64,000 bases of DNA, taken from Mobula hypostoma. Taxonomy: Eukaryota. Below are positions 4,366 to 63,030 of the stretch, one piece after another (the stretch's first letter is position 1; the number at the start of each line of letters is the position of its first letter). The notes under the pieces were generated by a model, which made no database searches, was not told the origin of the DNA, and was given only the letters and a program-made list of their open reading frames with translations. The position numbers and the translations under genes are program-made. The DNA is taken from NCBI RefSeq assembly GCF_963921235.1, contig NC_086097.1, forward strand, positions 35,094,001 through 35,158,000, written 5' to 3'.

Positions 4366-5195
4366 CTTTTATTTTCCTTCCCAGTTTCCTGTCTTCTTCC
4401 CATCATAATCTTTGACACTGAAGAACCTATCAACCTCCACTTTAAATATAACTCAATGACTTGATCTTCACAGCTGTTTGTGGCAATGAATTCCACAGAT
4501 CCACCATTCTCTAGACATCTGGCTAAAGAAATTCTTCCTTGTCTCTGTTCCTAAGGGACTTCTTAATGTTTTGAGTTTCACTGAGATCCTTCCCCACCCC
4601 CCCAATTCTTCGAAACTTCAGTGACTGCAGGCCCAGAGCCATCAAGCGCTCCTCATAACTAACCCTTTCATTCCTGGGATCATTCTAGTAAATCCCCTCT
4701 GGACTGTCTCCAATAGCAATACATCCTTTCTTAGATATAGGGCCCAAAACTGCTCACAATTCTCTAAGTATTGTCTATAAGTGCCTTATAAGCCTCAGCA
4801 TTACATCATTGCTTTTATATTCTTGTCCTCTTGAAATTGCATTGCATTTTCCTTCCCTATTACCAACTCAACCTGCAAGTTAACCTTTATGGAATTCTGC
4901 ATGAGAACGCTCAAGTCCCTTTGCACCCCTGATTTCTGAATTTGATCCCTGTTTAGAAAATAGTCTACACCCTTATTCCTTCCACCAAAGTGACTGACTG
5001 TACACTTCCCTACACTGTTTTCCATCTGCCAGTTCTTTGCCCATTCTATTAATCTGTCCAAGTCCTCTGTAGATTCCCTGCTTCCACAATATTTCATGTC
5101 CCTCCACCTATTATCAGCAAACTTGGTCACAAAGCCATCAATTCCATCGTCCAGGTCCTTAACATACCAACATGAAAAGCAGCAGATCCAATTTT
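4365..5195 (-). mobile_element. Degraded 5'-truncated CR1 LINE
   Basis: ORF 4801-5130 (KFAD, EWAKNWQM, QRDL) plus CR1 3' region. Confidence 0.85.
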
Positions 5196-5980: not shown

Positions 5981-6165
5981 AATAAGACATAATGGGGCAT
6001 GGGCGGGGGGGGTTGAATTTCTTCTTGATAGTAATCAGGAGTAATCATCAGCAAAGAGACGAGTGGTAATAATTTATGCATTTTACAGACTTATGATGTA
6101 TATCTTGAAATAGAAGATATGACTGTGTTTGATCTGGTATCAAACAATTGAAGTTGCATAAGACA

Positions 6166-6358
6166 ACAAACACAGGAAAATCTGCAAATGCTGGAAATCC
6201 AAAGCAACACACACAAAATTCTGGAGGAACTCAGCAGTTTTGGCAGTATCTGTAGAAAGGAATAAACAGTTACCCTTCAAGGACCCCCAGCCGAAACGTT
6301 GACTGTTCACTCTTTTCCATAGATGCTGCCTGGCCTGCTGAGTTCCTCCAGCATTTTG
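6166..6358. mobile_element. Palindromic Penelope-like pLTR mini-insertion with 17-bp TSD
   Basis: Two PLE 3' tails in inverted orientation around a degenerate hammerhead (CCGAAACGTTGACTG). Flanked by TGAAGTTG(C/T)ATAAGACA at 6149-6165 and 6359-6375. Confidence 0.8.
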
Positions 6359-6431
6359 TGAAGTTGTATAAGACATTGGTGAGGCCTAATTTGGAGTATT
6401 GTGTACAGTTTTGTTCACCCTCCTATAGGAA

Positions 6432-11125: not shown

Positions 11126-12930
11126 CCAACATAGATGACCTCACTAAGGGATTGGATTGTGACTGTGGTGTAGTGACATTTCACCAGCAAATCAGTCAGA
11201 TCAGAACTGAGACAAGATCATAGACCAATGAAGATACTAAATTAGTGTAAGTTGTGTTTTTTTGGTATCTATTATCTTTCAAACAATGAGTTACTTTAAA
11301 ACAGGTAACTCGTTTGAACAGTAAAAGAACTTAAATAATAAGCTCCATAGTGCATTGAATTCAGAATGTCTTCAAAGATTCTTGAGAAGAACACTACCTG
11401 TTAGTCCATTTCATTACAATGCAGCCCAATTAGTGGAGTCTTTAAACTAGAGCCATGTCACAGAAGCAATCCCATTTATTTAGTTACAGTGCCACTGATA
11501 CGCAGGTTATGAATTTGGCCAAGAATAACTGGGAGTATGTCAATTTGTCATAGGTTAATGTTATCCTTGGTCTTCAAAGGAAGGGGTAGATAAAGTTGTG
11601 GAATCCATATGTTTAAATGAGCCTGTTGGTTGTAGGTGCCCTCCCAAGTTCAACAACTTTTAGAGAAATTTATTTAGAGAAATCCACCTAGAAGCTGCTC
11701 AGTAAGTGCTTATTTCTCTGCAGCCAACAGAAATCTTCAGGCCTCTTTATAGCTGCTCAGTAGCTCCCTCTCCATGATATCGCTTTCCCTGACTTGTCTA
11801 GTAGCAATACGTTGGGAGAATCAGCAATGCTGATCTCACCCCACCTTATACAGTCTCTTGGCAACTCCTACCACACACTCAGACAGGGAAGATTCTGGTT
11901 GAAGACATTTAGTGGGGATAGACGCTGCTTCTCCATAATTTGCTCATTTAAACACTTCCTGGATCTGGTGATTTATAATGCTGGACGAAGCAAACAGTAC
12001 TCTGGACTAACAGCATCTGCAGAATCTCCTGTGTTTATGATACTTCTAATTCAGTAATATTAACTTTAAAATAAGTAATTTGGCTTCTTTGTTTGCCATG
12101 GTTGCTTACTGTTGACCAATAGCTTTTCCTCCATCTAGTAAATGGAACTGTTTATTGACTGATTTACCCTCAGAATTAGATATTAAACCTGTTCACTAAG
12201 CTTAACATCAGGTAGTGTTATCTGAGCCATTAGTAATTGCTATGCCCTACATATGGTCATTTTTGAAATTTGAATAATAAAGTTTTTATTCTTTTGTGAG
12301 GCTTGTAAATCAATAGCTCAATAGGTTCAATAGGTACATTTAATGTCAGAGAAATGTATACAATATACATACTGAAATTCTTTTTCAGCCTCATACTGGC
12401 ATTATCAGTTATTTTTATACGTATAGAGAGCTCAAGCAATAGGACACATTGAACGATGAACAAACAAACCAATACAAAGACATTCTTCATGTCTATTGTT
12501 AACATTTTGGCTTTAAAATATAACATCTTTCTTGTAGGTAGATGACCAAAACTGCACACAGTACTCTACCAGAAAAAGTGGGATCTCCCAGTGGCCACCC
12601 ATTTTAATTGCACTTCCCATTCCCATTCTGACACGTCTGTCCATGGCCTCCTCTACAGTCGCGACGGTTGGAGGAACAACACCTTGTATTCCTTCTGGGT
12701 AGCCTTCAACCCGATGACATGAACATCGATTTCTCGAACTTCCAGTAATGGCCCCCCACTTCACCATTCCCCATCCCCTTTTCCCTCTCTCACCTTATCT
12801 CCTTGCCTGCCCATCGCCTCCCTCTGGTGCTCCTCTCCCTTTTTCTTTCTCCATGGCCTTCTGTCCTTACCTATTAGATTCCCCCTTCTCCAGCCCAGTA
12901 TCTCTTTCACCAGTTAACGAATAGGGTTCC

Positions 12931-13542
12931 CTGGTCCTCACCTACCACCCCACCAGCCTCCGGGTCCAACATATTATTCTCCGTAACTTCCGCCACCTCC
13001 AATGGGATCCCACCACTAAGCACATCTTTCCCTCCCCGCCTCTCTCTGCATTCCGCAGGGATCGCTCCCTACACAACTCCCTTGTCCATTCGTCCCCCCC
13101 ATCCCTCCCCACTGATCTCCCTCCTGGCACTTATCCGTGTAAGCGGAACAAGTGCTACACATGCCCTTACACTTCCTCCCTTACCACCATTCAGGGCCCC
13201 AAAAAGTCCTTCCAGGTGAGGCAACACTTCACCTGTGAGTCGACTGGGGTGATATACTGCGTCCGGTGCTCCCGATGTGGCCTTTTATATATTGGCGAGA
13301 CCTGACGCAGACTGGGAGACCGCTTTGCTGAACATCTACGCTCTGTCCGCCAGAGAAAGCAGGATCTCCCAGTGGCCACACATTTTAATTCCACATCCCA
13401 TTCCCATTCTGTCATGTCTATCCACGGCCTCCTCTACTGTAAAGATGAAGCCACACTCAGGTTGGAGGAACAACACCTTATATTCCGTCTGGGTAGCCTG
13501 CAACCTGATGGCATGAACATCGACTTCTCTAACTTCCGCTAA
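12931..13542 (+). pseudogene. PLE ORF C-terminus: linker + Cys motifs + GIY-YIG endonuclease, one internal stop
   Basis: Manual translation: LVLTYHP..YPCKRNKCYTC..FTCESTGVIYCVRCSRCGLLYIGET*RRLGDRFAEH..VATHF..LEEQHLIFRLGSLQPDGMN. TGA at 13303-13305 is a CGA>TGA-type change. Frame not shown in the ORF track. Confidence 0.9.
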
Positions 13543-13836
13543 GGCCCCACCTCCCCCTCGTACCCCATCTGTTACTCATTTTTATGCACACATTCTTTCT
13601 CTCACTCTCCTTTTTCTCCCTCTGTCCCTCTGAATATACCTCTTGCCCATCCTCTGGGTCCCCCCCCCATTGTCTTTCTTCCCGGACCTCCTGTCCCATG
13701 ATCCTCTCGTATCCCCTTTTGCCTATCACCTGTCTAGCTCTTGGCTCTATCCCTCCCCCTCCTGTCTTCTCCTATCATTTTGGATCTCCCCCTCCCCCTC
13801 AAACTTTCAAATCCCTTACTCACTCTTCCTTCAGTT

Positions 13837-13872
13837 AGTCCTGACGAAGGGTCTCGGCCTGAAATGTCGACT
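13837..13872 (+). ncRNA. Minimal type-I hammerhead ribozyme motif in PLE pLTR
   Basis: AGTC-CTGACGA-A-GGGTCTCGGCCT-GAAA-TGTC-GACT. Core intact; two C>T changes at CpG positions. Confidence 0.75.
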
Positions 13873-15289
13873 GCGCCTCTTCCTACAGATGCTGCTTGGC
13901 CTGCTGCATTCACCAGCAACTTTGATGTGTGTTGCTTGAATTTCCAGCATCTGCAGAATTCCTGTTGTTTTCCAGTTAACTTACCAGCTCCCTACTTCAC
14001 CCCTCCCCCTCCCAGTTTCACCCATCACCTTTTGTGCTTCATCCTCCCCTCCACCCCACCTTTTAACTCTACTCCTCATCTTTTCTTCTCCAGTCCTGCC
14101 GAAGGGACACGGCCCGAAACGTCCTGTACTTTTTTTTCCATAGATGCTGCCTGGCCTGCTGAACTCCTCCAGCATTTTGTGCGTGTTTCTTGGATTTCCA
14201 GCAACTGCAGATTTTCTCTTGTTCACAATACTACAAGTTAGGTCTCACCAATATCTTATACAACATCAACATAACGTCCCAACTCCTGTTTTATTTATGA
14301 AGGCCAACGTGCCAAAACTTTTCTTTATAACCCTATCTACCTGTGATGCCACTTTCATGGAATTATGGATCTGTATTCCCAGATCCCTCTGTTCTACTAC
14401 ACTCCTCAGTGTCCTACCAGTCACCGTGTAAGTCCTATCCTGGTTTGTCCTCCCAAAGTGCAAAACTCACACTTGTCTGCATTAAATTCTACCTGCCATT
14501 TTCAGCCCATTTTTCCAGCTGGTCCAGAATACGTTGCAAGCTTGATAGTCTTCATCACTGTACACTACACCCCCGATCTTGGTGTCACCTGCAAATTTGC
14601 TGATCCACTTTGCCACATCATCATCCAGGTTGTTGATATAGAAGACAAACATCACTGGACTCAGCACCAATCCCTACAGCACACCACTAGTCACAGGCCT
14701 CCAGGTCAGAGAGGCAACCATCTACTACCACTCCCTGGCTTCTCCCACAAACCCATTGTCTAATCCAATTTACTACCTCATCTTGAATGCCAAGAAACTG
14801 AATCTTCTTGACCAACCTCCCATGTGGGACATTGTCAAATGCCTTGCTAAAGTCCATATAGACAACATCCACTGCCTTGCCTTCATCAATTTTCCTGGTA
14901 ACTTCCTCGAAAAACTCTAAAAGATTGGTTAGATGTGAACTACCACACTCACAGCCATGCTGACTTACCTAAATCAGTCCCTGTCTAACCAAATACTTAT
15001 ATATCGGGTCCCTTAGATCCGATTATTTTTTAGTTGAACCTGTATTTTAAAAAAGCTTTTTATCAGTGGCTTATAATGCAAAGAAAAACAGTAATTGAAT
15101 TAATACATTAAGTCAAATTCTCTAACCACACTGAGTATTTCCTGCATTTTCTCATTTTATTTTGGAAAATATGTCCACTGCGGACTTTGTGAACATTTAG
15201 TTACATGCTCTCAATGATATTTTTTGGACATAGCAAGTTCAGCAGCCATTTTGATTTAGGAATTGTAAATAATAATGGGAACTGATAGA

Positions 15290-17906: not shown

Positions 17907-18437
17907 TTAGTGAGTTCCCCCAGCATTTTGTGTGTGTTGCTTGGACTTCCAGCCTCTGCAGATTTTCTCTTGTTTGTGAATTGATTTCTATCTTTTTCCT
18001 TAGCTATCTTGAAACTATTATTTTTTATGATCACTGGTCCCAAAGTGTTCCCCCACTGGCACATCCACCATTTTCTCAGCCTTAATCCCTAAAAGAAGAA
18101 CAGGAAGCTTCATGGACAGATGTGGTCATTTTCACAGGCTGAAACCTGCCCTTTCAAGCTCTCAGATGAAGCCCCATCTCTTGAAAATTGGCTCCTTCAA
18201 GCCATCTGTTATTGAAAATGCCATCTATGCCTTTGTCACCTGTGTGCTTGACACTTACAGTGATTTCCTGGTCAGCCTCCTGCTCTCTATGATCAAAATA
18301 CTAAAGCTCGACTCTTTCATTACTTAGCTGAATACACTTACCATACGTCAAGTGCCCACACACCCATCACCACTCTTCTCACTGACCTACAATAGCTCTC
18401 AATCCCCAATGCCTCCAATTTAAATTTCCACAGTATC

Positions 18438-18660
18438 ACGCACAAAATCGGGGAGGAACTATGCATGTCAGGCAGCATCTATGGAAATGCATTAACTGTC
18501 AACGTTTCGGGCCGAGACCCTTCATCACCAGCCATACCCTTCGATGTTATGGGATGCAAGAGAGGACATCTTGAAAAAGTGCTTCCTGAGTTGCTGCGTT
18601 TTTCCAGCATTTTGTGTGTGTTGCTCTGGACTTCTGGCATCTGCAGACTCTCTTGTGTGG
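18438..18660. mobile_element. Inverted pair of PLE pLTR tails, hammerhead remnant at 18498-18527 (-)
   Basis: GTCAACGTTTCGGGCCGAGACCCTTCATCA followed by a sense tail CCAGCATTTTGTGTGTGTTGCTC..GCATCTGCAGA. Confidence 0.7.
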
Positions 18661-20849: not shown

Positions 20850-24450
<3,601 letters not shown>

Positions 24451-37400: not shown

Positions 37401-38036
37401 GATTTTTTTAAAATTAGAAGTTCATTAGCTGTACGCCAGTCACTGGTACAATTTCCTTTTCTGCTGAATTTTCATATCTGTAACTATGCCTCTGGTATCT
37501 CTTCCCCTCATTGTTTAAAATTGCAGAAATGAATTCCATCCAGACCCAAGGCTTTATCTTCTCCAAGCTTGACTAATTTATCTTAAATGTCATAGATTTT
37601 TTTTTAAAAACATTCGTTTATTGTCACATCCATTCTTTTACTCCTGTTAGTAAACACAGAAACAAGGTAATTATTCAGTAATTCTGCTATTTCCCTAATT
37701 ACTGCTTTGTTATGCTACTTAAAGCACTGGAATGTATTTACATAAACTTTCCACCATCTAGTTGGAAAATGTTTGTAAGGAACAATTATCAACAGTGAAA
37801 CCTTTGGATTGGGTAAAAACCTAGTTCGGAAATGAGCAACCTCGGCCCAATCGCCGAAAGGAAGGGCAGTCAATCTAGGTACAAAACAGTCTCTGAGGGA
37901 AAGCATTTAATGCAGAAGATGTCAGAACAATTTAATACTGAATAAAAGATAAGAGTGCTTGGACTGGGGAGGCTTGAAATGAAAGGGCCACTTCACAAAT
38001 AATCTCTATTGTGTGACAGTTTGACAGAGTATGTAA

Positions 38037-38067
38037 ACACAAAATAATCTGCAGATGCTGTTGTCAA
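38037..38067 (-). mobile_element. 31-bp PLE terminal micro-insertion with 9-bp TSD
   Basis: CAAAATAATCTGCAGATGCTGTTGTCAA is identical to 50631-50658. TSD AGTATGTAA at 38028-38036 and 38068-38076. Confidence 0.8.
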
Positions 38068-38905
38068 AGTATGTAAGTGGAAGATGGTAGCATAGGATAG
38101 GGAGATATGTGGAAGAATAGATGCATCAGAGAATGTGTATGTGCGGGTGTATGTGTGTAATTAACTTATAGGACATCTGCAGTGCTGGCAACTCTAATTT
38201 TTTGCATATACTGAAATGCCTTATAGGAGGTGGTGGTGAGGCCTGTGCCTGTATTTATCAGAAATATTCTTTTTCCGTAAAAATACTTGAAACCTGTTGC
38301 ATCTTATTTTGTGTAAGTTTTCAGTTTTTGGAAGGCTCTTTAGTGGGAGAGAGGCAATCCACACATATCATTTTCCGTAAGTAAGTCATAAACTATTGTG
38401 CCTCGACGGGAGAAATATCAGTTTATAAAGAAGAGTGGGCACTGCGGCTCGCTGGGCCCACATTGATTATCAAGCATCCATCTTTACAGTAATGCCACCC
38501 TGTTCTAGTGACTCCCTTCAGGTTTGTCTGCTCTTCTAGTTACTCGTGTTTGTTTTACTAACAGAAAGAGTAAAAAAAAGAAATAATGCAGTGCAGTGAA
38601 ATTATCTTCCATATGTCATAATGTCTAAAATTTTGTTAATTCACCAAAGCAAAAGTAAAAGTGGCACATCTATATAAAACTTCAAAAAAAGTTACATGTG
38701 CTATTTTGTAGAAAGTGACAATTTTGTTTCTGTTAGTTATTGGTATGTGGCCTGTTGAAAGGGAGTTTATACAAGAAAATAAAATGGCAGTATGTGAAAG
38801 TCATTTGAGGCTCTTGACAGAAATTGGAATTTTATTTTAACATCTGATTATTTCAATTTGATTCAAATTGAATTTTAATTGAAACTGATTAACAAAATGA
38901 GGTAA

Positions 38906-39040
38906 ACAACAGGAATTCTGCAGATGCTGGAAATTCAAGCAACACACATCAAAGTCGCTGGTGAACGCAGCAGGCCAGGCAGCATCTGTAGGAAGAGGTG
39001 CAGTCGATGTTTCAGGCCGAGACCCTTCGTCAGGACTAAC
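38906..39040 (-). mobile_element. PLE mini-insertion (hammerhead + 3' tail) with TSD
   Basis: Direct repeat TAACAAAATGAGGTAA at 38890-38905 and 39037-39052. Hammerhead at 39002-39037 (reverse complement AGTC-CTGACGA-A-GGGTCTCGGCCT-GAAA-CATC-GACT). Confidence 0.88.
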
Positions 39041-49402: not shown

Positions 49403-49644
49403 AATTCCCCATGTCCATCATCCTCTGGCTGAAGAAATTCTTCCTCATCTCTGTTCTGAACGGACACTGAGCCTGTGTCAATAATAGCTCCTGACCAAAG
49501 TAACGTAGAACAATCTCACTATCTCACTTTTCTACTCTTACCCACGCCTTTTATATATGTTTTTTCTTGATCCTTCGCCAGGTTGGCTTGTGATTGCTGT
49601 GACTGCCACAGCCAGTCATTGTTCTGGCAGATAGGGCTCTATAT

Positions 49645-49724
49645 CAGGGGTTCCCAACCTTTTTTATGCCATGGACTCCTACCAATAACCGAGTGGTCAG
49701 TGGATTCCAGGTTGGGAACCCCTG
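49645..49724. mobile_element. 80-bp hAT (Charlie-type) MITE
   Basis: Perfect 16-bp TIR CAGGGGTTCCCAACCT. Perfect 8-bp TSD CTCTATAT at 49637-49644 and 49725-49732. Confidence 0.93.
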
Positions 49725-50719
49725 CTCTATATACTGTCACTGTGATGACATTGTCTTTAGTTTATATGATAATTACATGATCCTTTGAAGCAATTTTTAA
49801 TTTTAAAAATATCACACCCTGCTTGCAATCTCTTAGCGCTTTACCTTCAGGCCTCATTTCACTAACACTCACATAACCTTCTCACCAGCAGCATGCAAAT
49901 GTCACTCCACTCTTTAAGAAGGGAGGAAGGCAAAACAAAAAAGAAATTATAGGCCAGTTAGCCTAACTGCAGTGGCTGGGTAAGTGTTGGAGTTGACTAT
50001 TAAGGATGAGGTTTTGAGGTACTTGGAGACTAATGATAAAATAAGTCAAAGTCAGCATGGTTTCTGTAAAGGGAAATCTTGCCTGATAAATCTGTTAGAG
50101 TTCTTCAAGGAAGCAACAAGCAGAGTGGATAAAGGAGAGGCAGTGGATGTCATTTACTTGAATTTTCAGAAGGTGTTTGATAAGGTGCCTCACATGAGAT
50201 GGCTTAACAAGATAAAATCCTATGGCGTTACAGGAAAGATACTGGCATGAGTAGAGGAATGGCTGACGGGCAGGAGGCAGCAAGTGGGAATAAAGTGGGC
50301 CTTTTCTGGTTGGCTGCCAGTGACTAGTGGTTTTTGTCAGGGGTTAGTATTGGGACCGCTACTTTTCACATTGTTTGTCAATGATTTGGATAGTGGAATT
50401 GGTGGCTTTGTGGCAAACTTTGCAGTTGATACAAAGATAGGTGGAGGGGTAGTTAGTGCTGAGGAAGCAATGCGATTGCGGCAGGACTTAGACAAGTTGG
50501 AAGACTGGACAAAAAAGTGGCAGATGGAATACAGTGTTGGGAAATGTATGATAATGCATTTTGGTAAAAGGAACAATAGTGTGGACTATTAACTAAATGG
50601 CGAGAAGGTTCAAATATCAAAAACTAAACTCAAAATAATCTGCAGATGCTGTTGTCAAAGGAGCACTCACAATGCGCTGGAGGAACTCAGCAGGTCAGTC
50701 AGCATCAGTTGAAAAGATT

Positions 50720-50755
50720 AGTCGACGTTTCGGGCCAAAACCCTTCGTCAGGACT
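50720..50755 (-). ncRNA. Intact minimal type-I hammerhead ribozyme motif
   Basis: Reverse complement AGTC-CTGACGA-A-GGGTTTTGGCCC-GAAA-CGTC-GACT. Confidence 0.85.
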
Positions 50756-51567
50756 GAAGGAAGAACTTTGGGGAGGGTTTGAAGAATGCTGGTAGTTGAA
50801 AAAAACAGTAACTTGAAAGACAAAGGGGTGGGGGACGGGAAGCAGAAAGGTGATTGGCAGGAGAACAATGCGCAGTAGTAGAAGGAGGCGGAACTATGAG
50901 GGAGGTGATGTGAAATAGGGATAGGGGAAGGGAAGGGGAGGGAATTACCGGAAGTTGGAGAATTCCATGTTCATACCAAGGGGCTGGAGACTACCTAGAC
51001 GGTATATGAGGTGTTGCTCCTCCAACCTGAGTTTAGCCTCATCATTGCAGTAGAGGAGGCCATGTATGGACATATATGAATGGGAATGGGAAGCAGAGTT
51101 GAAGTGGGTGGCTACCGGGAGATCCTGTCTGTTGTGGCGCTTATCCCTGTAAGCGTAAGTGCTACACCTGTCCCTACACCTCTTCTCTTGCCAACATTCA
51201 GGCCCCCAAACAGTCCTTCCAGGTGAGGCAACACTTCACTTGAGAGTCTGTTGGGGTCATCCATTGCATCCGGTGCTCCCGGTGTGGCCTCCTCTACATC
51301 GGTGAAACCAGACGCAGATTGGGGGACCACTTCATTGAGCCCCTTGGTATGAACATAGAATTCTCCAGCTTCCGGTAATTCCCTCCCCCTCCCTTCCTCT
51401 ACCTCTATTTCACATCACCTCCCTCATAGTTCCGACTCCTTCTACTACTGCGCATTGTTCTCCTGGCAATCACCTCCCTGCTTCCCCTCCCCCACCCCTT
51501 TGTCTTTCAAGTTACTGTTTTTTTCAACTACCAGCATTCTTCAAACCCTCCCCAAAGTTCTTCCTTC

Positions 51568-51603
51568 AGTCCTGACGAAGGGTTTCGGCCCGAAACGTCG
51601 ACT
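51568..51603 (+). ncRNA. Intact minimal type-I hammerhead ribozyme motif
   Basis: AGTC-CTGACGA-A-GGGT(TTCG)GCCC-GAAA-CGTC-GACT. Predicted GUC cleavage after 51599. Confidence 0.87.
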
Positions 51604-53459
51604 AATCTTTTCAACTGATGCTGACTGACCTGCTGAGTTCCTCCAGCGCATTGTGAGGGTTCAAACATCAGAGGTGCAGAGGGACTTGGGACTTCTCATG
51701 TACGACTCCCAGAAGGTTAATTTACAGGTTGAGTCTGTGGTAAAGAAGTCAAATGCAATGTTGGCATTTATTTCAAGGGGAATAGAATATAAAAGCAAGG
51801 AGATAATGCTGTGGTTTTATAAGACACTAGTTGGTCTGCACTTGGAGCATTGTCATCAGTTTTGGGCCCCATATCTCAGAAAGGACGTGTTATTATTGGA
51901 GAGTCCAGAGGAGGTTCATGAGGATGATTCTGGGAATGAAGGGGTAAATATATGAGAAGCGTTTGGCAGCTCTCGGCCTGTACTCACTGGAATTTAGAAG
52001 AATGCGTGGGGATCTCATTGAAACCTACCGAATGTTGAAAGCACTAGATAGGGTGGATGTGGAGAGGATGTTTCCTGTGGTGGGGAAATCCAGAACTAGA
52101 GGGCACAGCCTCAAAATTGAGGGATGTCCTTTTAGAACAGAGCGAAGGAGGATTTTTTTTTGCCTAAGAGTAGTGAATCTGTGGAATGCTCTGCCACAAG
52201 CTGCGGTGGAGGCCAAGTCCGTGGGTATGTTTATGTGGAAGTTGATTGTTTCCTGATCAGTCAGGGCATCAAAAGATATGGCGAGACGGAAGGTATATGG
52301 GGTTGAGTGGGATCCGGGATCAGCCATGATGGAATGGCGGAACAGACTCAATGGGCTGAATGGCCTAATTCTGCTCCTATATCTTATGGTTTTATGTCAG
52401 TTCATTGTGATTACTAATCTCAGTGTATGATACCAGAAGAAAACTGTATAGAATTTTTAAGAGAGTAAATATGAATTGTAAGGTTATTGTAAAGTCTTAA
52501 GCTGATGTTACTAGACAATCTGAATGAATTGATACCTTGCTGGAAGCTGGATAAATCCCGGAGAGGCAAGAATCTGCAAGGCTACAGAGAGCGAGCAGTG
52601 AAATGGGACTGTCTAGATTTCTCCTAGTTTGAGCTGGTATATAGTGTCAGTGGATGAAACTGTTTCCTTTTCAGTAGCAATTCCATGACTATGACTTTCT
52701 GTAAATTACTGTCAGCTCACTCACAACCTATTTATTGCAGGCAAGCATTAACTGTACAATATTTGGTTATAAATCTTTCATGTTCTCCTGGTATTTCCAC
52801 TATTTGGTTTGATGTACAAACCAAAAATTATAGAGAATACTTATTATTATTGATTTTGGCAGATTTCATAAACAGATGCGGCTTTTGCTTTTTATTTTAG
52901 TTTCTTTATGTAAGAAATGTAATTTCTGAAAAAAAAAATCCAGTGAATCTGTCCATAACTTAAAAAAGGTAGATTTCCAATTCAGGGAAAAATGCCATAG
53001 GTACAATCTGTCTTTCAAGAAAGACATGAAAAAAAATCAAATAATACTTCTTGTTAGTGTTAGTGCAGCTACGGACAGTAAAGTCTGCATGTACAGAAAT
53101 GGAAATGTCTGTGATCATTGATATTCTGTAATCTATGAAGTAAGCTTTGAAGTAAAAACTGGCTTATCAGGTCTCTCAGCTTTGCCTAAAATGTATTTCT
53201 TACTATGAATTTACAGTAGCAATTGTTGATCTTGGGACAGTGCTAATGCTATTTCAGCTAATAACCAGGCCTCACAAATATGATAAGATGTCATACATTT
53301 TGTGTTCCAGCATGGATGTTCTACATTTTACACCAAGCCTGGTTTGATTTCCTGATCTTCTGCATGTTGCTTGCCTTGACTCTGTCTCTCACCTGACTAG
53401 TCAATACCATCTTTAGAACTGAAATCGATGAATCCAGTGTGGAGGATTACAGACCATTG

Positions 53460-55769: not shown

Positions 55770-57120
55770 TGTGGACATCACTGACAAAGCCAACATTTTT
55801 ACCTGTTAAGAAATCCACTTGAGAGATGGGTGGTGAGCTATCTTTTAAAACTGCTGTAATCTTTCTGATGGAAGTACTCTATTAATTATGTTGATGAGAG
55901 AGTTCCATAATTTAGATTTGTTCATGGTGATGATGGATTGGGGATATATTTTCTATTCAACGTGTGGTCTGACTTCAACAGGAACCTGCATTTGATAATG
56001 TTCCTGTGTGTCTTCTGCTGTTGTCCTTTCTGATGGTGAAAGTTGTAAAACTGGGTGATCCTGTGAGAGTGAACTGAATGACTGAACACAGAATATATTA
56101 TTACTGGTACACAATGAAGCCACAAGGGGAGATACTTAATGTTTATAAGGTAGTTAAACAAAATCAAGCAGGCTCCTTTGTCATCAACAGTGTCAAGCTT
56201 AAGTGCTTTTGGAACTGCAGGCATTCAGCTAAATGAAGAGTAAATCACATTACTGATGTGCAGTTTGTTGATGGTGGAAAGAGTTTGTGGTGTCAGCGGA
56301 TGAATTACTTACTGGTGGATAACTCAGCCTCTAATCTGGTTTTGTAGTCAGTGTTTATGACTGCTCCGTTGGAACTCTTGATTAATGGTTTACCACGGGA
56401 TATTAATGGTGCACATCTTTGCAATGAGAACTGTATAGAAAGCAAGAGTAGATGGATGGACTTTGTGTTGTTGGAAGTGGCCATTAGCTTTCACTTTGGT
56501 GGTGCAACTGTTAACTACCTCTTCTCATCCTATGACTTACTGTTGTCTAATTCTTGCTGCATATTGTTAGGATAGGCTTCATTTGCTAGGGGCGATAAAT
56601 TGAACTCAGAGCTATGCAATCTTCAGTAGACATTCCAGGTTCTGAGGTAATGACAGAAGGAAGATGATTGTTGAAGATGATTGGGCCTATCTCCCTTCCC
56701 TAAGGAATTCCTGTTACAATGACTTGGGGCTGGGATGATGGCTCTACAGCAACTATGCCACTTTCCCTTGGGTGAAGTATGATCCAACCAACAGTGCATT
56801 ATTTCCTTAATACCCATTGACTTTAATTTTATAGTCACATTGGATGGGCTACGATGAGTCAAATTATGTCCTACTGTCAGGGCGAATTCACTCTCACCTC
56901 AGCTCTTTGGTCCATGTTTCGAGCAAGGCTGCGATGTGTTATAGAGTGTTCTGGTGAAGGTCAAACTTGGCAGTGTTGAGCAGGTTATTGTTGAGTGTTT
57001 GTCATTCAGTAGCACTATTAATAACAGCTCCATTAATAGCCACCAGTCATTGATTGATTGATTGCACAGTAATTAGTCCGATTGTCCTGATCCTGCTGCT
57101 CCCAGAGGAAAGTCCCTGCA
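55770..57120 (-). mobile_element. Ancient degraded LINE-like repeat
   Basis: Patchy similarity to 700-1300; no ORF. Confidence 0.35.
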
Positions 57121-57129
57121 TTCAAATGG

Positions 57130-57224
57130 TCTCTCTCTCTCACTCTCTCTCTCTCTCACTCTCACTCTCACTCTCACTCTCTCACTCTCACTCTCTCTCT
57201 CACTCTCTCTCTCTCTCACTCTCT

Positions 57225-57265
<41 letters not shown>

Positions 57266-58340
57266 TCTCACTCTCTCTCGCACTCTCTCACTCTCTCTCA
57301 CTCTCACTCTCTCACTCTCACTCTCACTCTCACTCTCTCTCACTCTCACTCTCACTCTCTCACTCTCTCTCACTCTCTCTCGCACTCTCTCTCTCACTCT
57401 CTCTCTCACTCTCACTCTCGCTCTCACTCTCTCTATCTCGCACTCTCTCTTTCTCACACTCTCACTCTCACTCTCTCTCACTCTCTCTCGCACTCTCTCT
57501 CACTCTCACTTTCTCTCTCTCCCCCACTCTCTCTCTCACTCTCACTCTCTCTCACTCTCTCTCGCACTCTCTCTCTCTCTCACTCTCTCTCACTCTCTCA
57601 CTCTCACTCTCTCTCTCACTCTCTCTCTCACTCTCTCTCACTCTCTCTCTCACTCTCACTCTCTCTCTCACTCTCTCTCACTCTCACTCTCACTCTCTCT
57701 CACTCTCACTCTCTCTCTCCCACTCTCTCTCTCTCACTCTCACTCTCACTCTCTCTCACTCTCTCTCACTCTCTCTCTCTCCCACTCTCTCTCTCTCACT
57801 CTCACTCTCACTCTCTCTCTCACTCTCTCCCACTCTCACTCTCTCTCTCCCACTCTCTGTCTCTCACTCTCACTCTCTCTCACTCTCTCTCGCACTCTCT
57901 CTCACTCTCACTCTCTCTCTCACTCTCACTTTCTCTCTCCCCCACTCTCTCTCTCACTCTCACTCTCACTCTCTCTCGCACTCTCTCTCTCACTCTCTCT
58001 CACTCTCTCACTCTCACTCTCACTCTCTCTCGCACTCTCTCTCTCACTCTCTCTCACTCTCTCACTCTCTCTCTCACTCTCTCTCTCACTCTCACTCTCA
58101 CTCTCTCTCACTCTCACTCTCTCTCTCTCCCACTCTCTCACTCTCACTCTCACTCTCTCTCACTCTCTCTCGCACTCTCTCTCTCTCACTCTCACTCTCT
58201 CTCTCACTCTCACTCTCACTCTCACTCTCTCTCTCCCACTCTCTCTCTCTCACTCTCACTCTCACTCTCACTCTCTCTCTCTCTCACTCTCTCTCTCACT
58301 CTCTCTCTCTCACTCTCTCTCTCACTCTCTCTCTCTCACT
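57130..58340 (+). repeat. ~1.2-kb compound (CT)n/(CTCTCA)n microsatellite
   Basis: Seen directly: CT runs punctuated by CA, with occasional CG/CC variants. Confidence 0.98.
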
Positions 58341-58344
58341 TAAT

Positions 58345-58775
58345 GCTGCCAGAGGATTGTGCCAGAGTCCTGGGTCTTGGGGGTAAGGTTTAACGGATGC
58401 AGTTTGTGGATAGGACTCTGTAATCCATGTTATGATGTGTTTCTGGCGTCTGGTTTCTCCTTTTTTGTTGCTATTTTGGTCATTTTTGATTGGGATGGCC
58501 TGCAGATAATGAATGATGCAGTGCTAGATTGAACTGAACTGAGCTGAAAATATTCCTGGACTCTTTTGACTTTGTGTTACATATTCTATATTTTTCATTC
58601 TTTTTTGCCGTTTGCATGATTGTTCTCTTTGTGCGTTGGAGTGGGTGTTGATTTTTTTTTCTTGGAACATGTTACATGGTTTTCTTTGTTCTGTAGCTGT
58701 CTGTGTGAAGATGAATCTCAGGGTTTGTATAGTGCATATATACTTTGATAATAAATGTACTTTGAATCTTTGAAT
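58345..58775 (+). mobile_element. Retroposon with Rex/Babar-like 3' tail
   Basis: Ends GAATCTCAGGG..TACTTTGATAATAAATGTACTTTGAATCTTTG, like 40530-40590. Confidence 0.6.
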
Positions 58776-59019
58776 CACTAAAGGCAGGAGAAATTCAAAC
58801 CTGTGAAGTTTCCATATTGTAGGTTAGATGACAGTTTTGTAACTGTATTGTCCGCTTTGAGTGTTTCTGTGAGCTATTCTGGCCGTTTTTGTGCATTGAT
58901 ATTTGTGCTTTACTTTACCAGGAAATTGTCTTTCCAGGGAAATGTGGACTCGGGAATATTTCAGCATTGCTCTTTTGCAGGACTCACTGCTCTGCTATGA
59001 ATGAACAATTAAAGCAGAT

Positions 59020-62000
59020 GAATTAGGAAGCATCAGGAACAATGGTGATGAACTGAGAGCTTGGATACGTACATGGAATTATGATGTAGTGGCCATTACA
59101 GAGGCTTGGCTGGCACCAGGGCAGGAATGGATTCTCAATATTCCTGGATTTCAGTGCTTTAAAAAGGATGGGGGGCGGGAGGGGAGGAGGGGTGGCATTA
59201 CTGGTCAGGGATACTATTACAGCTACAGAAAGGGTGGGTAATGTAGCAGGATCCTCTTTTGAGTCAGTATGGGTGGAAGTCAGGAACAGGAAGGGAGCAG
59301 TTACTCTATTGGGGGTATTCTATAGGCCCCCTGGTAGCAGCAGAGATACCGAGGAGCAGATTGGGAGGCAGATTTTGGAAAGGTGCAAAAATAACAGGTT
59401 TGTTATCATGGGTGACTTTAACTTCCTTAATATTGATTGGCACCTAATTAGTTCCAAGGGTTTAGATGGAGCGGAGTTTGTTAAGTGTGTCCAGGATGGA
59501 TTCCAGTCACAGTATGTTGGCAGGCCGACCAGGGGGAATGCCATACTAGATCTAGTACTAGGTAATGAACCGGGTCAGGTCACAGATCTCTCAGTGGGTG
59601 AGCATCTGGGGGACAGTGACCACCGCTCCCTGGCCTTCAGCATTATCATGGAAAAGGATAGAATCAGAGAGGACAGGAAAATTTTTAATTGGGGAAGGGC
59701 AAATTATGAGGCTATAAGGCTAGAACTTGCGCGTGTGAATTGGGATGATGTTTTTGCAGGGAAATGTACTATGGATATGCGGTGGATGTTTAGAGATCTC
59801 TTATAACCATATAACCATATAACAATTACAGCACAGAAACAGGCTATCTCGGCCCTTCTAGTCTGTGCCGAACTCTCACTCTCACCTAGTCCCACCAACC
59901 TGCACTCAGCCCATAACCCTCCATTCCTTTCCTGTCCATATAGCTATCCAATTTAACTTTAAATGACAACATCGAACCTGCCTCAACCACTTCTGCTGGA
60001 AGCTTGTTCCACACAACTAGCACTCTCTGAGTAAAGAAGTTCCCCCTCATGTTACCCCTAAACTTTTGCCCTTTAACTCTGAACTCACGTCCTCTTGTTT
60101 GAATCTCCCCCACTCTCAATGGAAAAAGCCTATCCATGTCAACTCTATCTATCCCCCTCATAATTTTAAATACCTCTATCAAGTCTCTCCTCAACCTTCT
60201 ACGCTCCAAAGAATAAAGACCCAACTTGTTCACCTTTCTCTGTAACTTAGGAGATGAAACCCAGGTAACATTCTAGTAAATCTTCTCTGTACTCTCTCAA
60301 TTTTGATGATATCTTTCCTATAATTCGGTGACCAAAACTGTACACAGTACTCCAAATTTGGCCTTACCAATGCCTTGTACAATTTTAACATTACATCCCA
60401 ACTCCTATACTCAATGCTCTGATTTATAAAGGCCAGCATACTAAAAGCTTTCTTCACCACCCTATCCACATGAGATTCCACCTTCAGGGAACTATGCACC
60501 ATTATTCCTAGATCCCTCTGTTCTACTGCATTCTTCAATGCCCTACCATTTACCATGTATGTCCTATTTTGATTAGTCCTACCAAAATGTAGCACCTCAC
60601 ATTTACCAGCATTAAACTCCATCTGCCATCTTTCAGCCCACTCTTCTAACTGGCCTAAATCTCTCTGCAAGCTTTGAAAATCTACTTCATTATCCACAAC
60701 TCCACCTATCTTAGTATCATCTGCATACTTACTAATCCAATTTACTATCCCATCATCCAGATCATTAATATATATGACAAACAACACTGGACCCAGTACA
60801 GATCACTGAAGCACACCACTAGTCATCGGCCTCCAATCTGACAAACAGTTATCCACCACTGCTCTCCGGTGTCTCCCATCCAGCCACAGCTGAATCCATT
60901 TTACTACTTCAATATTAATACCTAACGATGGAACCTTCCTAACTAACCTTCCATGTGGAACCTTGTCAAAGGCCTTACTGAAGTCTATATAGACAACTTG
61001 CAGGATGTTAGGGATAAATTTGTCCTGGTGAGGAAGGTAGGGTGAAGGAACCATGGGCAACAAGTGAGGTGGAAAATCTAGGCAGGTGGAAGAAGGCAGC
61101 ATACATGAGGTTTAGGAAGCAAGGATCAGATGGGTCTTTTGAGGAATATAGGGAAGCAAGAAAGGAGCTTAAGAAAGGGCTGAGAAGAGCAAGAAGGGGG
61201 AATGAGAAGGCCTTGGCGAGTAGGGTAAAGGAAAACCCCAAGGCATTCTTCAATTATGTGAAGAAAAAAAGGATGACAGGAGTGAAGGTAGGACCAATTA
61301 GAGATAAAGGTGGGAAGATGTGCCTGGAGGCTGTGGAAGTGAGCGAGGTCCTCAATGAATACTTCTCTTCGGTATTCACCAATGAGAGGGAGCTTGATGA
61401 TGGAGAGGACAATGTGAGTGAGGTTGATGTTCTGGAGCATGTTGATATTAAGGGAGAGGAGGTGTTCGAGTTGTTAAAATGTATTAAGATGGATAAGTCC
61501 CCGGGGCCTGATGGGATATTCCCCAGGCTGCTCCACGAGGTGAGGAAAGAGGTTGCTGAGCCTCTGGCTAGGATCTTTATGTCCTCGTTATGTCTACGGG
61601 AATGGTACCGGAGGATTGGAGGGAGGCGAATATTGTCCCCTTGTTCAAAAAAGATAGTAGGGATAGTTGGATAATTATAGACCAGTGAGCCTTACGTCTG
61701 TGGTGGGAAAGCTGTTGGAAAAGATTCTTAGAGATAGGATCTATAGGCATTTAGAGAATCATGGTCTGATCAGGGACAGTCAGCATGGCTTTGTGAAGGA
61801 CAGATCGTGTCTAACAAGCCTGATAGAGTTCTCTGAGGAGGTGACCAGGCATATAGATGAGGGTAGTGTAGTGGATGTAATCTATATGGATTTTAGTAAG
61901 GCATTTGACAAGGTTCCACATGGTAGGCTTATTCAGAAAGTTAGAAGGCATGGGATCCAGGGAAGTTTGGCCAGGTGGATTCAGAATTGGCTTGCCTGCA

Positions 62001-63030
62001 GAAGGCAGAGGGTCATGGTGGAGGGAGTACATCCGGACTGGAGGGTTGTGACTAATGCTGTCCCACAAGGATCAGTTCTGGGACCTCTATTTTCGTGATT
62101 TTTATTAACGACCTGGATGTGGGGGTAGAGGCGTGGGTTGGGAAAATTTGCAGACGACACAAAGGTTGGTGGTGTTGTAGATAGTGTAGAGGATTGTCGA
62201 AGATTGCAGAGAGATATTGATAGGTTGCAGAAGTGGGCTGAGAAGTGGCAGATGGAGTTCAATCCGGAGAAGTGTGAGGTGGTACACTTTGGAAGGACAA
62301 ACTCCAAGGCAGAGTACAAAGTAAATGACAGGATACTTGGTAGTGTGGAGGAGCAGAGGGATCTGGGGGTACATGTCCACAGATCCCTGAAAGTTGCTTC
62401 ACAGGTAGATAGGGTAGTTAAGAAAGCTTATGTGGGGTTAGCTTTCATAAGTCGAGGGATAGAGTTTAAGAGTCATGAGGTAATGATGCAGTTCTATAAA
62501 ACTCTGGTTAGGCCACACTTGGAGTACTGTGTCCATTTCTGGTCACCTCACTATAGGAAGGATGTGGAAGCATTGGAAAGGATACAGAGGAGATTTACCA
62601 GAATGCACCTGGTTTAGAGAGTATCGATTATGATCAGAGATTAAGGGAGCTAGGGTTTTACTCTTTGGAGAGAAGGAGGATGAGAGGAGACATGATAGAG
62701 GTGTACAAGATATTAAGAGGAATAGATAGAGTGGATAGCCAGCGCCTCTTCCCCAGGGCACCACTGCTCAATACAAGACGACATGGCTTTAAGGTAAGGG
62801 GTGGGAAGTTCAAGGGGGATATTAGAGGAAGGTTTTTTACTCAGAGAGTGGTTGGTGCATGGAATGCACTGCCTGAGTCAGTAGTGGAGGCAGACACACT
62901 AGTGAAATTTAAGAGAGTACTAGACAGGTATATGGAGGAATTTAAGGTGGGGGGTTATTTGGAAGGCAGGGTTTGAGGGTTGGCACAACAATGTGGGCTG
63001 AAGGGCCTGTACTGTGCTGTACTATTCTAT
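59020..63030 (+). mobile_element. CR1 LINE, near-complete ORF2 with frameshifts, interrupted by an antisense CR1
   Basis: GGGVAL, FYRPP, GDFN, DSDH, KSPGPDG, YRPVSLTS, YMDFSKAFDKVPH, KFADDTK, RGDMIEVYK, plus CR1 tail. Confidence 0.95.
59803..60997 (-). mobile_element. 5'-truncated CR1 LINE nested antisense
   Basis: IDFSKAFDKVPH, KYADDTK, LVRPNLEYCVQFW. (ATATGGTT)n tail. The host ..GATCTCTT|GCAGGATG.. is split here. Confidence 0.93.

What the first reader, a model, noticed from the sequence alone, without database searches (positions are those of the whole stretch)
50620..51657. Young fold-back PLE with two intact hammerheads on opposite strands inside KCNH5 intron 1
Seen: a ~320-bp near-perfect inverted repeat (50666-50985 / 51338-51657) with a 13-bp TSD splitting a CR1 ORF. 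Both hammerheads keep their CpGs. The spacer holds the endonuclease C-terminus in antisense (50985-51139) and the GIY-YIG N-part in sense (51140-51340); the sense arm has lost roughly the segment the antisense arm retains, at an AGC microhomology. Established: inverted pLTR arrangements occur in PLEs. Inference: KCNH5 pre-mRNA would form a long dsRNA hairpin (ADAR/Dicer substrate) that competes with folding of the sense ribozyme, and transcription in either direction yields one hammerhead.
Basis: partly seen in the sequence, partly recalled or inferred. Interest (0 to 1): 0.72.

Follow-up and report, generated by a model that had tools for sequence, protein, structure and literature searches.

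The report
Dead two-armed Penelope insertion, buried ribozymes
A jumping-gene remnant in an intron of a ray's potassium-channel gene consists of two truncated copies joined head to head, a layout already described for Penelope-like elements, and its two small ribozyme motifs are predicted to be buried in the hairpin and likely inactive, so it is ordinary apart from a deletion in one arm that starts 14 bases from where the other arm begins.

Summary
The structure is real. It has 320-nt inverted arms (12 mismatches), a 12-of-13 target-site duplication in a dead CR1-type copy, a 46-nt tail on the left arm only, and split GIY-YIG endonuclease pieces. It lies downstream of KCNH5 coding exon 1. It is a dead, head-to-head Penelope-like insertion. 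Inverted copy, one-sided tail, TSD, internal microhomology deletion and paired hammerheads on opposite strands are all in print. The scan has noted the layout elsewhere in this genome, and an older miniature lies at 6149-6375. Corrections: the left hammerhead has lost 1 of 5 CpGs. Both motifs are minimal, dimer-type hammerheads with no loop III. In either transcription direction the antisense arm is made first, so folding buries the motif. Cleavage at 51599 is therefore unlikely; incidental ADAR editing is plausible but untested. The residue of interest is mechanistic. The 171-nt deletion begins 14 nt before the other arm's 5' end, the miniature shows similar geometry, and 11 of 12 arm mismatches sit in the inner 150 nt. 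This suggests two templates and a deletion coupled to the fold-back during integration. No genome was held, so this rests on two loci.

The parts
22028..22100 (+). First coding exon of the host gene, KCNH5-type potassium channel, followed by a GT donor; sets the pre-mRNA sense as +
49900..50619 (+). Decayed RT-encoding LINE copy (CR1-type by recall), left part of the target; start approximate
   Evidence: RVT_1
50607..50619 (+). Target-site duplication, left copy
50620..50665 (-). 46-nt 'tail': element 3' end present on the left arm only
   Evidence: described as a 30-40 nt optional tail in PMC8557442 and PMC11167929
50666..50985 (-). Left arm of the inverted repeat (end of EN frame, 3' region, hammerhead)
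50720..50755 (-). Left minimal hammerhead; loop II UUUG (one CpG lost); nominal cut site after the C at 50724
50986..51139 (-). Endonuclease C-terminal part unique to the left arm (frame open down to 50948)
51135..51139 (.). Central head-to-head junction; 4-5 nt fit both arms (microhomology)
51140..51340 (+). Linker CX3CxxC motif and GIY-YIG N-part; premature stop at 51241-51243
51338..51340 (+). AGC microhomology at the 171-nt in-frame deletion
51338..51657 (+). Right arm of the inverted repeat; ends at the tail-less site
51568..51603 (+). Right minimal hammerhead; loop II UUCG; nominal cut site after 51599
51658..51670 (+). Target-site duplication, right copy (1 mismatch)
51671..52396 (+). 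Right part of the interrupted LINE copy

Best explanation
This is a dead insertion of two 5'-truncated Penelope-like copies joined head to head between target-site duplications, likely made when both nicked target strands primed reverse transcription on element RNA, and its two minimal hammerheads are predicted to be buried in the hairpin and inactive. Inferred steps: (1) The element's GIY-YIG endonuclease cut both strands 13 nt apart in an old LINE copy. (2) The top strand primed at the tail-bearing start site and was copied to 51139; the bottom strand primed at the tail-less site 46 nt further in and was copied to about 51135-51140. Since 320 nt were copied twice, two RNA units were needed: two molecules, or two units of one tandem transcript. 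(3) The two cDNA ends annealed through 4-5 nt and served as each other's template. (4) The new strands are self-complementary, so a stem formed whose inner end lies where the left arm begins. Synthesis stalled 14 nt short of it and resumed 171 nt on at AGC. Odds: ordinary dead two-ended insertion about 0.9; silent ribozymes in read-through RNA about 0.9; deletion coupled to the fold-back about 0.65, of which at integration about 0.45 and later about 0.2. In KCNH5 pre-mRNA the arms would form a 320-bp duplex that ADAR would probably edit as a bystander.
For: Anatomy. Both ends are element 3' ends. The right end (position 135 of the 181-nt end query) is matched by the tail-less end of a second head-to-head insertion at 6149-6375 (position 134), which has its own 16-17 nt TSD and a tail on one side only. 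Ten of 16 other 3' ends aligned in the window carry the tail; 6 of 16 stop between positions 117 and 145. The anole protein cleaves and extends both strands, starts at two sites that bound the tail, needs no homology to the target and is predicted to be a dimer (PMC11167929). The same layout with TSD and a microhomology deletion is reported in a rotifer (PMC3846280). Coupling of the deletion: a gap of 14 nt or less has a 1-10% chance if truncation is uniform over 3000-300 nt (rough, and chosen after seeing the data). The miniature appears to lack about 17 nt in one arm, the stretch with which its other arm starts. Two templates: 11 of 12 mismatches lie in the inner 150 nt (best-split permutation p=0.016; KS p=0.010). 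In run X1 the left-arm letter reaches 5% of laid depth at only 1 or 2 of the 12 positions (my match of tables 1 and 3). Silent ribozymes.
Against: No genome was held, so the geometry rests on 2 loci, and the miniature is about 80% diverged with an ambiguous alignment. Both arms share G at 51511 where the laid family depth is A (100% in X1, 99.8% in X2). That points to one donor, or later conversion, for the outer part and complicates a plain two-donor model. The asymmetry count is biased because contigs had to be 92% like the right arm. The rotifer paper reads head-to-head structures as self-priming on an antisense template, a published alternative. Junctions were not individually visible in the laid contigs. 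Folding is an equilibrium prediction without proteins or splicing kinetics.
Confidence: 0.72

Rival explanations
1. The right arm was copied from a donor element that already carried the 171-nt deletion; its closeness to the other arm's start is chance.
For: The N-part differs from the family majority at 3 or more near-fixed positions, one a stop codon (51183, 51194, 51243), as a defective donor might. The uneven arm divergence fits two different donors.
Against: It needs a coincidence of roughly 1-10%, apparently repeated at 6149-6375. In all 4 laid runs the commonly reported upstream neighbour of 51338 is the undeleted sequence (tables 5 and 7). None of 6 protein hits covered the fused junction (68-77% of the 44-aa query; weak).
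Confidence: 0.2
2. The insertion began with arms of about 475 nt around a spacer of about 215 nt; a later hairpin- or cruciform-induced break near the loop was repaired at AGC, and gene conversion homogenised the outer arms.
For: It explains the deletion start next to the stem, the single mismatch in the outer 170 nt and the shared rare G at 51511. It is more natural for the miniature, whose spacer would have been very short.
Against: Per a review (PMC7999016 passages), fork stalling at inverted Alus in eukaryotic cells was lost with a 52-bp spacer, and a 280-bp spacer was stable in wild-type yeast. G at 51511 is also seen in runs X2 and X9 at about ten times the depth of single contigs (summed depth is not a copy number), so it need not be a mutation private to this locus.
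Confidence: 0.2
3. The hairpin or a ribozyme regulates KCNH5: editing, small RNA production or co-transcriptional cleavage of intron 1.
For: The element is in a long intron on the sense strand, with a very stable predicted duplex. Young repeats are the main ADAR targets across metazoans (PMC9989829 passages). Both catalytic cores are intact.
Against: The motif is dimer-type and buried. Even alone, its predicted fold pairs the core into an alternative stem (-11.9 against -7.9 kcal/mol for stems I+II). It lies 28 kb from exon 1 in a dead LINE, among at least 16 other such 3' ends in the window. No sign of conservation was tested or seen.
Confidence: 0.03
4. The inversion is an assembly or fold-back read artefact.
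Against: An artefact would not make a TSD at both exact ends, restore the LINE frame on removal, leave a one-sided tail ending where another insertion ends, or give arms with 12 substitutions and no indels.
Confidence: 0.04

Closest known systems
Canonical EN+ Penelope-like insertion unit with an adjacent inverted 5'-truncated copy and a one-sided tail (PMC8557442 Fig. 2 legend and passages; PMC3846280 passages)
   Same: Inverted arms with 3' ends outward, tail at one end only, TSD, C-terminal GIY-YIG with two cysteines inside, hammerhead in the end repeat; the rotifer example also has an internal microhomology-mediated deletion.
   Different: Tail is 46 nt rather than 30-40; no RT left; the deletion abuts the other arm's 5' end, a relation I did not find stated (one search aimed at it, plus passages).
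Minimal hammerheads of metazoan Penelope-like elements (PMC4209133, Results and Discussion read)
   Same: Intact core, extra nucleotide between 9 and 10.1, G10.1-C11.1, 4-bp helix I, palindromic 15.2-16.2, no loop III; the paper reports pairs 100-700 bp apart on opposite strands.
   Different: Helix II is 4 bp, not the 7-8 bp of the Schistosoma families; the two motifs here are about 810 bp apart.
Twin priming and the postulated dual priming of L1 (PMC2837659 passages)
   Same: TSD around two opposed pieces; the N-part and C-part do not overlap and miss 14 nt between them; microhomology at the internal junction.
   Different: 320 nt are present twice and both ends are 3' start sites of the element, which one unit of RNA cannot give; the enzyme is a GIY-YIG element, not L1.
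Poseidon element of Anolis carolinensis, in vitro (PMC11167929, main text read)
   Same: Two RT start sites bounding the tail, extension of both strands, no homology needed at the target, protein-dependent hammerhead with no RNA-seq ends at the cut site.
   Different: Different clade: this family has the CX2-5CxxC linker, which Penelope/Poseidon lack, and its hammerhead lies downstream of the stop codon.

Membership tests
EN+ Penelope-like elements | C-terminal GIY-YIG endonuclease | tested here: met
   The in-window relative hits PF01541 (22.8 bits, cut-off 22.6) and the finding's two pieces are 79-81% identical to it. The pieces on their own gave no GIY-YIG hit.
EN+ Penelope-like elements | [quoted passage not shown] | tested here: met
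   CxxC before LLYIG in the sense piece; histidines in the antisense piece (definition). Which histidines complete the motif was not assigned.
EN+ Penelope-like elements | Telomerase-related RT in the same ORF | tested here: inconclusive
   Absent from this truncated insertion. Ray proteins 82-90% identical to the C-part continue upstream into RT-like sequence (P0001, P0006; read by eye). No tree was built.
EN+ Penelope-like elements | Inverted 5'-truncated copy, one-sided tail, TSD | tested here: met
   tail 46 nt against 30-40 nt in print.
Neptune/Nematis-type (not Penelope/Poseidon) | CX2-5CxxC motif upstream of GIY-YIG | tested here: met
   CX3CxxC in the sense piece; definition from PMC8557442.
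Neptune/Nematis-type (not Penelope/Poseidon) | RT phylogeny places it in the clade | not tested
   No named reference sequences were on hand.
Minimal hammerhead (min-HHR) | Conserved core, extra nucleotide at 9/10.1, G10.1-C11.1, palindromic 15.2-16.2, no helix III in the monomer | tested here: met
   Both motifs, read from sequence against PMC4209133. Rfam gave 0 matches in the window at gathering thresholds.
Minimal hammerhead (min-HHR) | Self-cleavage (as a dimer or with protein help) | not testable with these tools
   Predicted buried in read-through RNA.
L1-type twin priming on one RNA unit | The two opposed pieces do not overlap | tested here: not met
   320 nt are present in both arms, although the two spacer pieces do follow the rule (14-nt gap).
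Non-LTR retrozymes | Tandem units with two or more hammerheads on the same strand | tested here: not met
   One motif per strand; criterion from bioRxiv 10.64898/2026.07.22.740005 passages.

The most novel reading that the evidence does not exclude
Two-armed Penelope insertions are made by a two-RNA particle, in which each target strand primes on a different RNA, possibly held together by the palindromic helix III of the minimal hammerheads. The self-complementary intermediate then routinely deletes from one arm exactly the stretch with which the other arm begins. 'Complementary deletions' and unevenly diverged arms would be a genome-wide fossil record of the second-strand and joining steps that no one has yet reconstituted.
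Probability: 0.2. Interest if true: 0.55.

Novelty: new member of a known kind. Interest (0 to 1): 0.2.

Why it matters
As a locus it matters little: it is one of many dead copies in a family that is abundant in ray genomes. It is a clean specimen of how Penelope-like elements integrate, and the steps after priming are still unvalidated (PMC11167929). If the deletion-abuts-other-arm geometry proves general, thousands of such copies would make the joining step testable by computation alone, and would say whether two RNAs are used per insertion. It also shows why paired hammerheads of this layout should not be annotated as active intronic ribozymes.

Tried and rejected
Whole genome: none held for this window, so no genome-wide count, copy number or orthologue. 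Rfam at gathering thresholds: 0 matches in the window. Sequencing runs: 24 listed, no RNA holder listed; this is no evidence on expression. Four of the 24 runs were laid on 50986-52650, which holds the right arm only. The tables were swamped by family copies and capped, so none of the locus's own junctions was shown either way. Run X1 matches the unique flank with 0 differences in 283 nt and may not be independent of the window; X2 differs at 6 letters and 2 gaps in about 280. Contigs cannot show editing or RNA ends. A hammerhead pattern scan of the metagenome collection found 0 stretches; the second scan was not used. Pfam on the finding's own endonuclease pieces gave no GIY-YIG hit. A protein search for the fused deletion junction found 6 hits among 7 candidates, none covering it (weak). 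The earlier-findings look-up by sequence, near this place, and by the words for a complementary deletion returned nothing. A second candidate pair at 18427-18656 had no TSD and was not counted. ADAR marks in the donor RNA were considered and dropped: only 1 of the 4 near-fixed private changes listed inside the insert (51183, 51194, 51243, 51368) and 2 of the 12 arm mismatches are A/G. Fold-back copying of the first cDNA was rejected as the source of the right arm, because that arm ends at a family start site and differs at 12 positions. PMC9977147 (passages) and the shark-oriented search (listing only) added nothing. No supplements were read; Fig. S2 of PMC11167929 and Fig. S6 of PMC4209133 may bear on the tail and cleavage claims.

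Full report
Observation. The insert runs from 50620 to 51657. Its arms, 50666-50985 and 51338-51657, align without gaps at 308 of 320 positions. It is bounded by a 13-nt duplication with one mismatch (50607-50619, 51658-51670), a pattern found at only these 2 places in the window. Taking out the insert and one copy leaves one open frame across the site, and the left flank hits Pfam RVT_1 (E 7.7e-08). The host LINE copy has several stops; calling it CR1 is my recall. An exon at 22028-22100 on + matches human KCNH5 at 23 of 23 aligned residues and is followed by GT. No exon-2 motif was found further on with short recalled motifs, so the insert most likely lies in the intron after the first coding exon. 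The closest named proteins come from Hypanus, Mobula and Hemitrygon (8 hits, 76-93% identity), which supports a ray host.

Anatomy. An unrearranged relative at 12925-13545 hits the GIY-YIG family (22.8 bits, cut-off 22.6, read with X at its stop) and gives the native order. The sense piece of the spacer corresponds to its 13125-13333 and the antisense piece to 13348-13547, so 14 nt are in neither arm. A closer protein, P0001, has five residues at that place, which agrees. The right arm therefore lacks 171 nt, in frame, between two AGC triplets. At the centre, 4-5 nt (51135-51139) fit both arms. The left arm runs 46 nt further than the right. The CX3CxxC motif upstream of the endonuclease points to the Neptune/Nematis type (definition in PMC8557442 passages); no tree was made. 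The sense piece has a premature stop that 98% of the laid family depth in X1 lacks. The element is dead.

How ordinary it is. Sixteen other 3' ends of related elements were aligned in the window: 10 of 16 carry the tail and 6 of 16 stop between positions 117 and 145 of the 181-nt end query. One pair, 6149-6375, is a second head-to-head insertion with a 16-17 nt duplication, a tail on the left only, and a right end at position 134 against 135 here. A further pair at 18427-18656 showed no duplication. In print: an inverted 5'-truncated copy and a 30-40 nt tail at one end are typical (PMC8557442 passages). A rotifer insertion has inverted repeats, a 10-bp TSD, an internal microhomology deletion and a stop (PMC3846280 passages). 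Pairs of minimal hammerheads 100-700 bp apart on opposite strands were reported in Schistosoma (PMC4209133 Results). Earlier notes of this scan describe the same layout elsewhere in this genome; they are unchecked AI notes and are not counted as support.

The ribozymes. Both motifs have an intact core, the extra nucleotide before helix II, a 4-bp helix I, a 4-bp helix II and a palindromic ACGU with no loop III. These are the features of the minimal, dimer-type hammerhead. Rfam does not detect them (0 matches). The left motif has lost the CpG in loop II, so the claim that both keep their CpGs is not exact. A single motif of this class showed no detectable cleavage. The anole motif needed protein, was dispensable for insertion in vitro and left no RNA-seq ends (PMC11167929 main text). 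A transcript of this locus holds only one motif. Because both 3' ends face outward, the antisense arm is always made first. Folding gives 317 in-register pairs on either strand, with mean pairing probability over the motif of 0.97 and 1.00. Truncated transcripts are zipped throughout (63 of 63, 157 of 163, 227 of 233, 260 of 267, 276 of 283). Alone, the motif prefers a fold that pairs its core (-11.9 against -7.9 kcal/mol). Editing of the duplex (163 A in 640 nt) is likely by analogy with other young repeats (PMC9989829 passages) but was not tested.

Mechanism. The anole protein cleaves and extends both target strands, starts at two sites that bound the tail and needs no homology to the target. 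That accounts for one tailed and one tail-less end within one duplication; here only 3 of 5 bases match at the right junction. Since 320 nt were copied twice, two RNA units were used, as in the dual priming postulated for L1 (PMC2837659 passages) or priming on two units of a tandem transcript. This is inference. The rotifer paper offers self-priming on an antisense template as another route.

The deletion. It begins 14 nt before the point where the other arm starts. If independent, that has a rough chance of 1-10%, a figure chosen after seeing the data. The miniature at 6149-6375 seems to lack about 17 nt in its left arm, the stretch with which its right arm opens, but it is old and the alignment is ambiguous. 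I favour a deletion made while the intermediate was single-stranded and folded back (about 0.45). A later break at the hairpin (about 0.2) is less likely, because spacers of 52-280 bp are described as stable in eukaryotes (PMC7999016 passages). A pre-deleted donor (about 0.2) found no support in the laid runs or in 6 protein hits, but those tests are weak. I did not find this relation stated in print; that rests on one aimed search (1 unrelated paper listed) and the passages read.

Uneven arms. Eleven of 12 mismatches are in the inner 150 nt and 1 is in the outer 170 (best-split permutation p=0.016, KS p=0.010). Matching the change counts of table 1 to the rows of table 3 for run X1, the left-arm letter reaches 5% of laid depth at 51368 and possibly 51466, and not at the other 10 positions. 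An even split would be expected from neutral decay (binomial p=0.04 or 0.006), but the 92% likeness filter favours the right arm's letters. Against two wholly separate donors, both arms share G at 51511 where the laid depth is almost all A. A mosaic left arm, two related donors or conversion of the outer part all remain open.

Reality of the inversion. It was not shown directly: 4 of 24 listed runs were laid on one arm, and the capped tables showed no record across the junctions. The duplication at both exact ends, the restored frame, the shared tail-less end and 12 substitutions without indels argue against an artefact.

Verdict. A real, well-preserved but ordinary dead Penelope-like insertion; new member of a known kind; interest 0.2. 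The functional story for KCNH5 is not supported (about 0.03). The one lead worth a genome-wide test is the deletion that abuts the other arm.

Noticed in passing
window 6149-6375: Older miniature head-to-head Penelope-like insertion inside another repeat: 16-17 nt TSD, tail on the left arm only, right arm ending at the same tail-less site; the left arm seems to lack about 17 nt of the hammerhead core, the stretch with which the right arm begins.
   Followed up: partly
window 12569-14225: Partial tandem of the same superfamily: an endonuclease C-terminal piece, then a longer RT-end/endonuclease frame with one stop, followed by two different hammerhead-bearing 3' ends in a row (13800-13970, 14070-14225). 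Used as the reference for native order.
   Followed up: partly
window 18427-18656: Two opposed Penelope-like 3' ends facing outward, about 50 nt apart, tail on the right one; no TSD found.
   Followed up: partly
window 38034-39040: A 36-nt tail-like piece 97% identical to this element's tail at 38034-38069, about 850 nt from a second minus-strand 3' end with an intact hammerhead core (core start 39033).
   Followed up: no
window 60139-62735 and 3445-5110: Two pairs of opposed RT-type LINE copies (68% over 869 nt, 72% over 525 nt); the first lies in the same intron and could also pair weakly in pre-mRNA.
   Followed up: partly
window 51050-51062 / 51285-51297: A 13-nt perfect inverted match inside the spacer; it reflects a sequence that occurs twice in the endonuclease frame (both at GLLY).
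   Followed up: partly
proteins P0001, P0002, P0005, P0007, P0008: Ray gene models named as unrelated host proteins contain this element's endonuclease sequence: read-through or exonised copies, or annotation errors.
   Followed up: no
window 49640-49729: 21-nt inverted repeat 48 nt apart (90%), like a small hairpin element just upstream of the LINE copy.
   Followed up: no
window 57001-59000: Extreme GC and AT skew (-0.87, -0.49), probably a long simple repeat.
   Followed up: no
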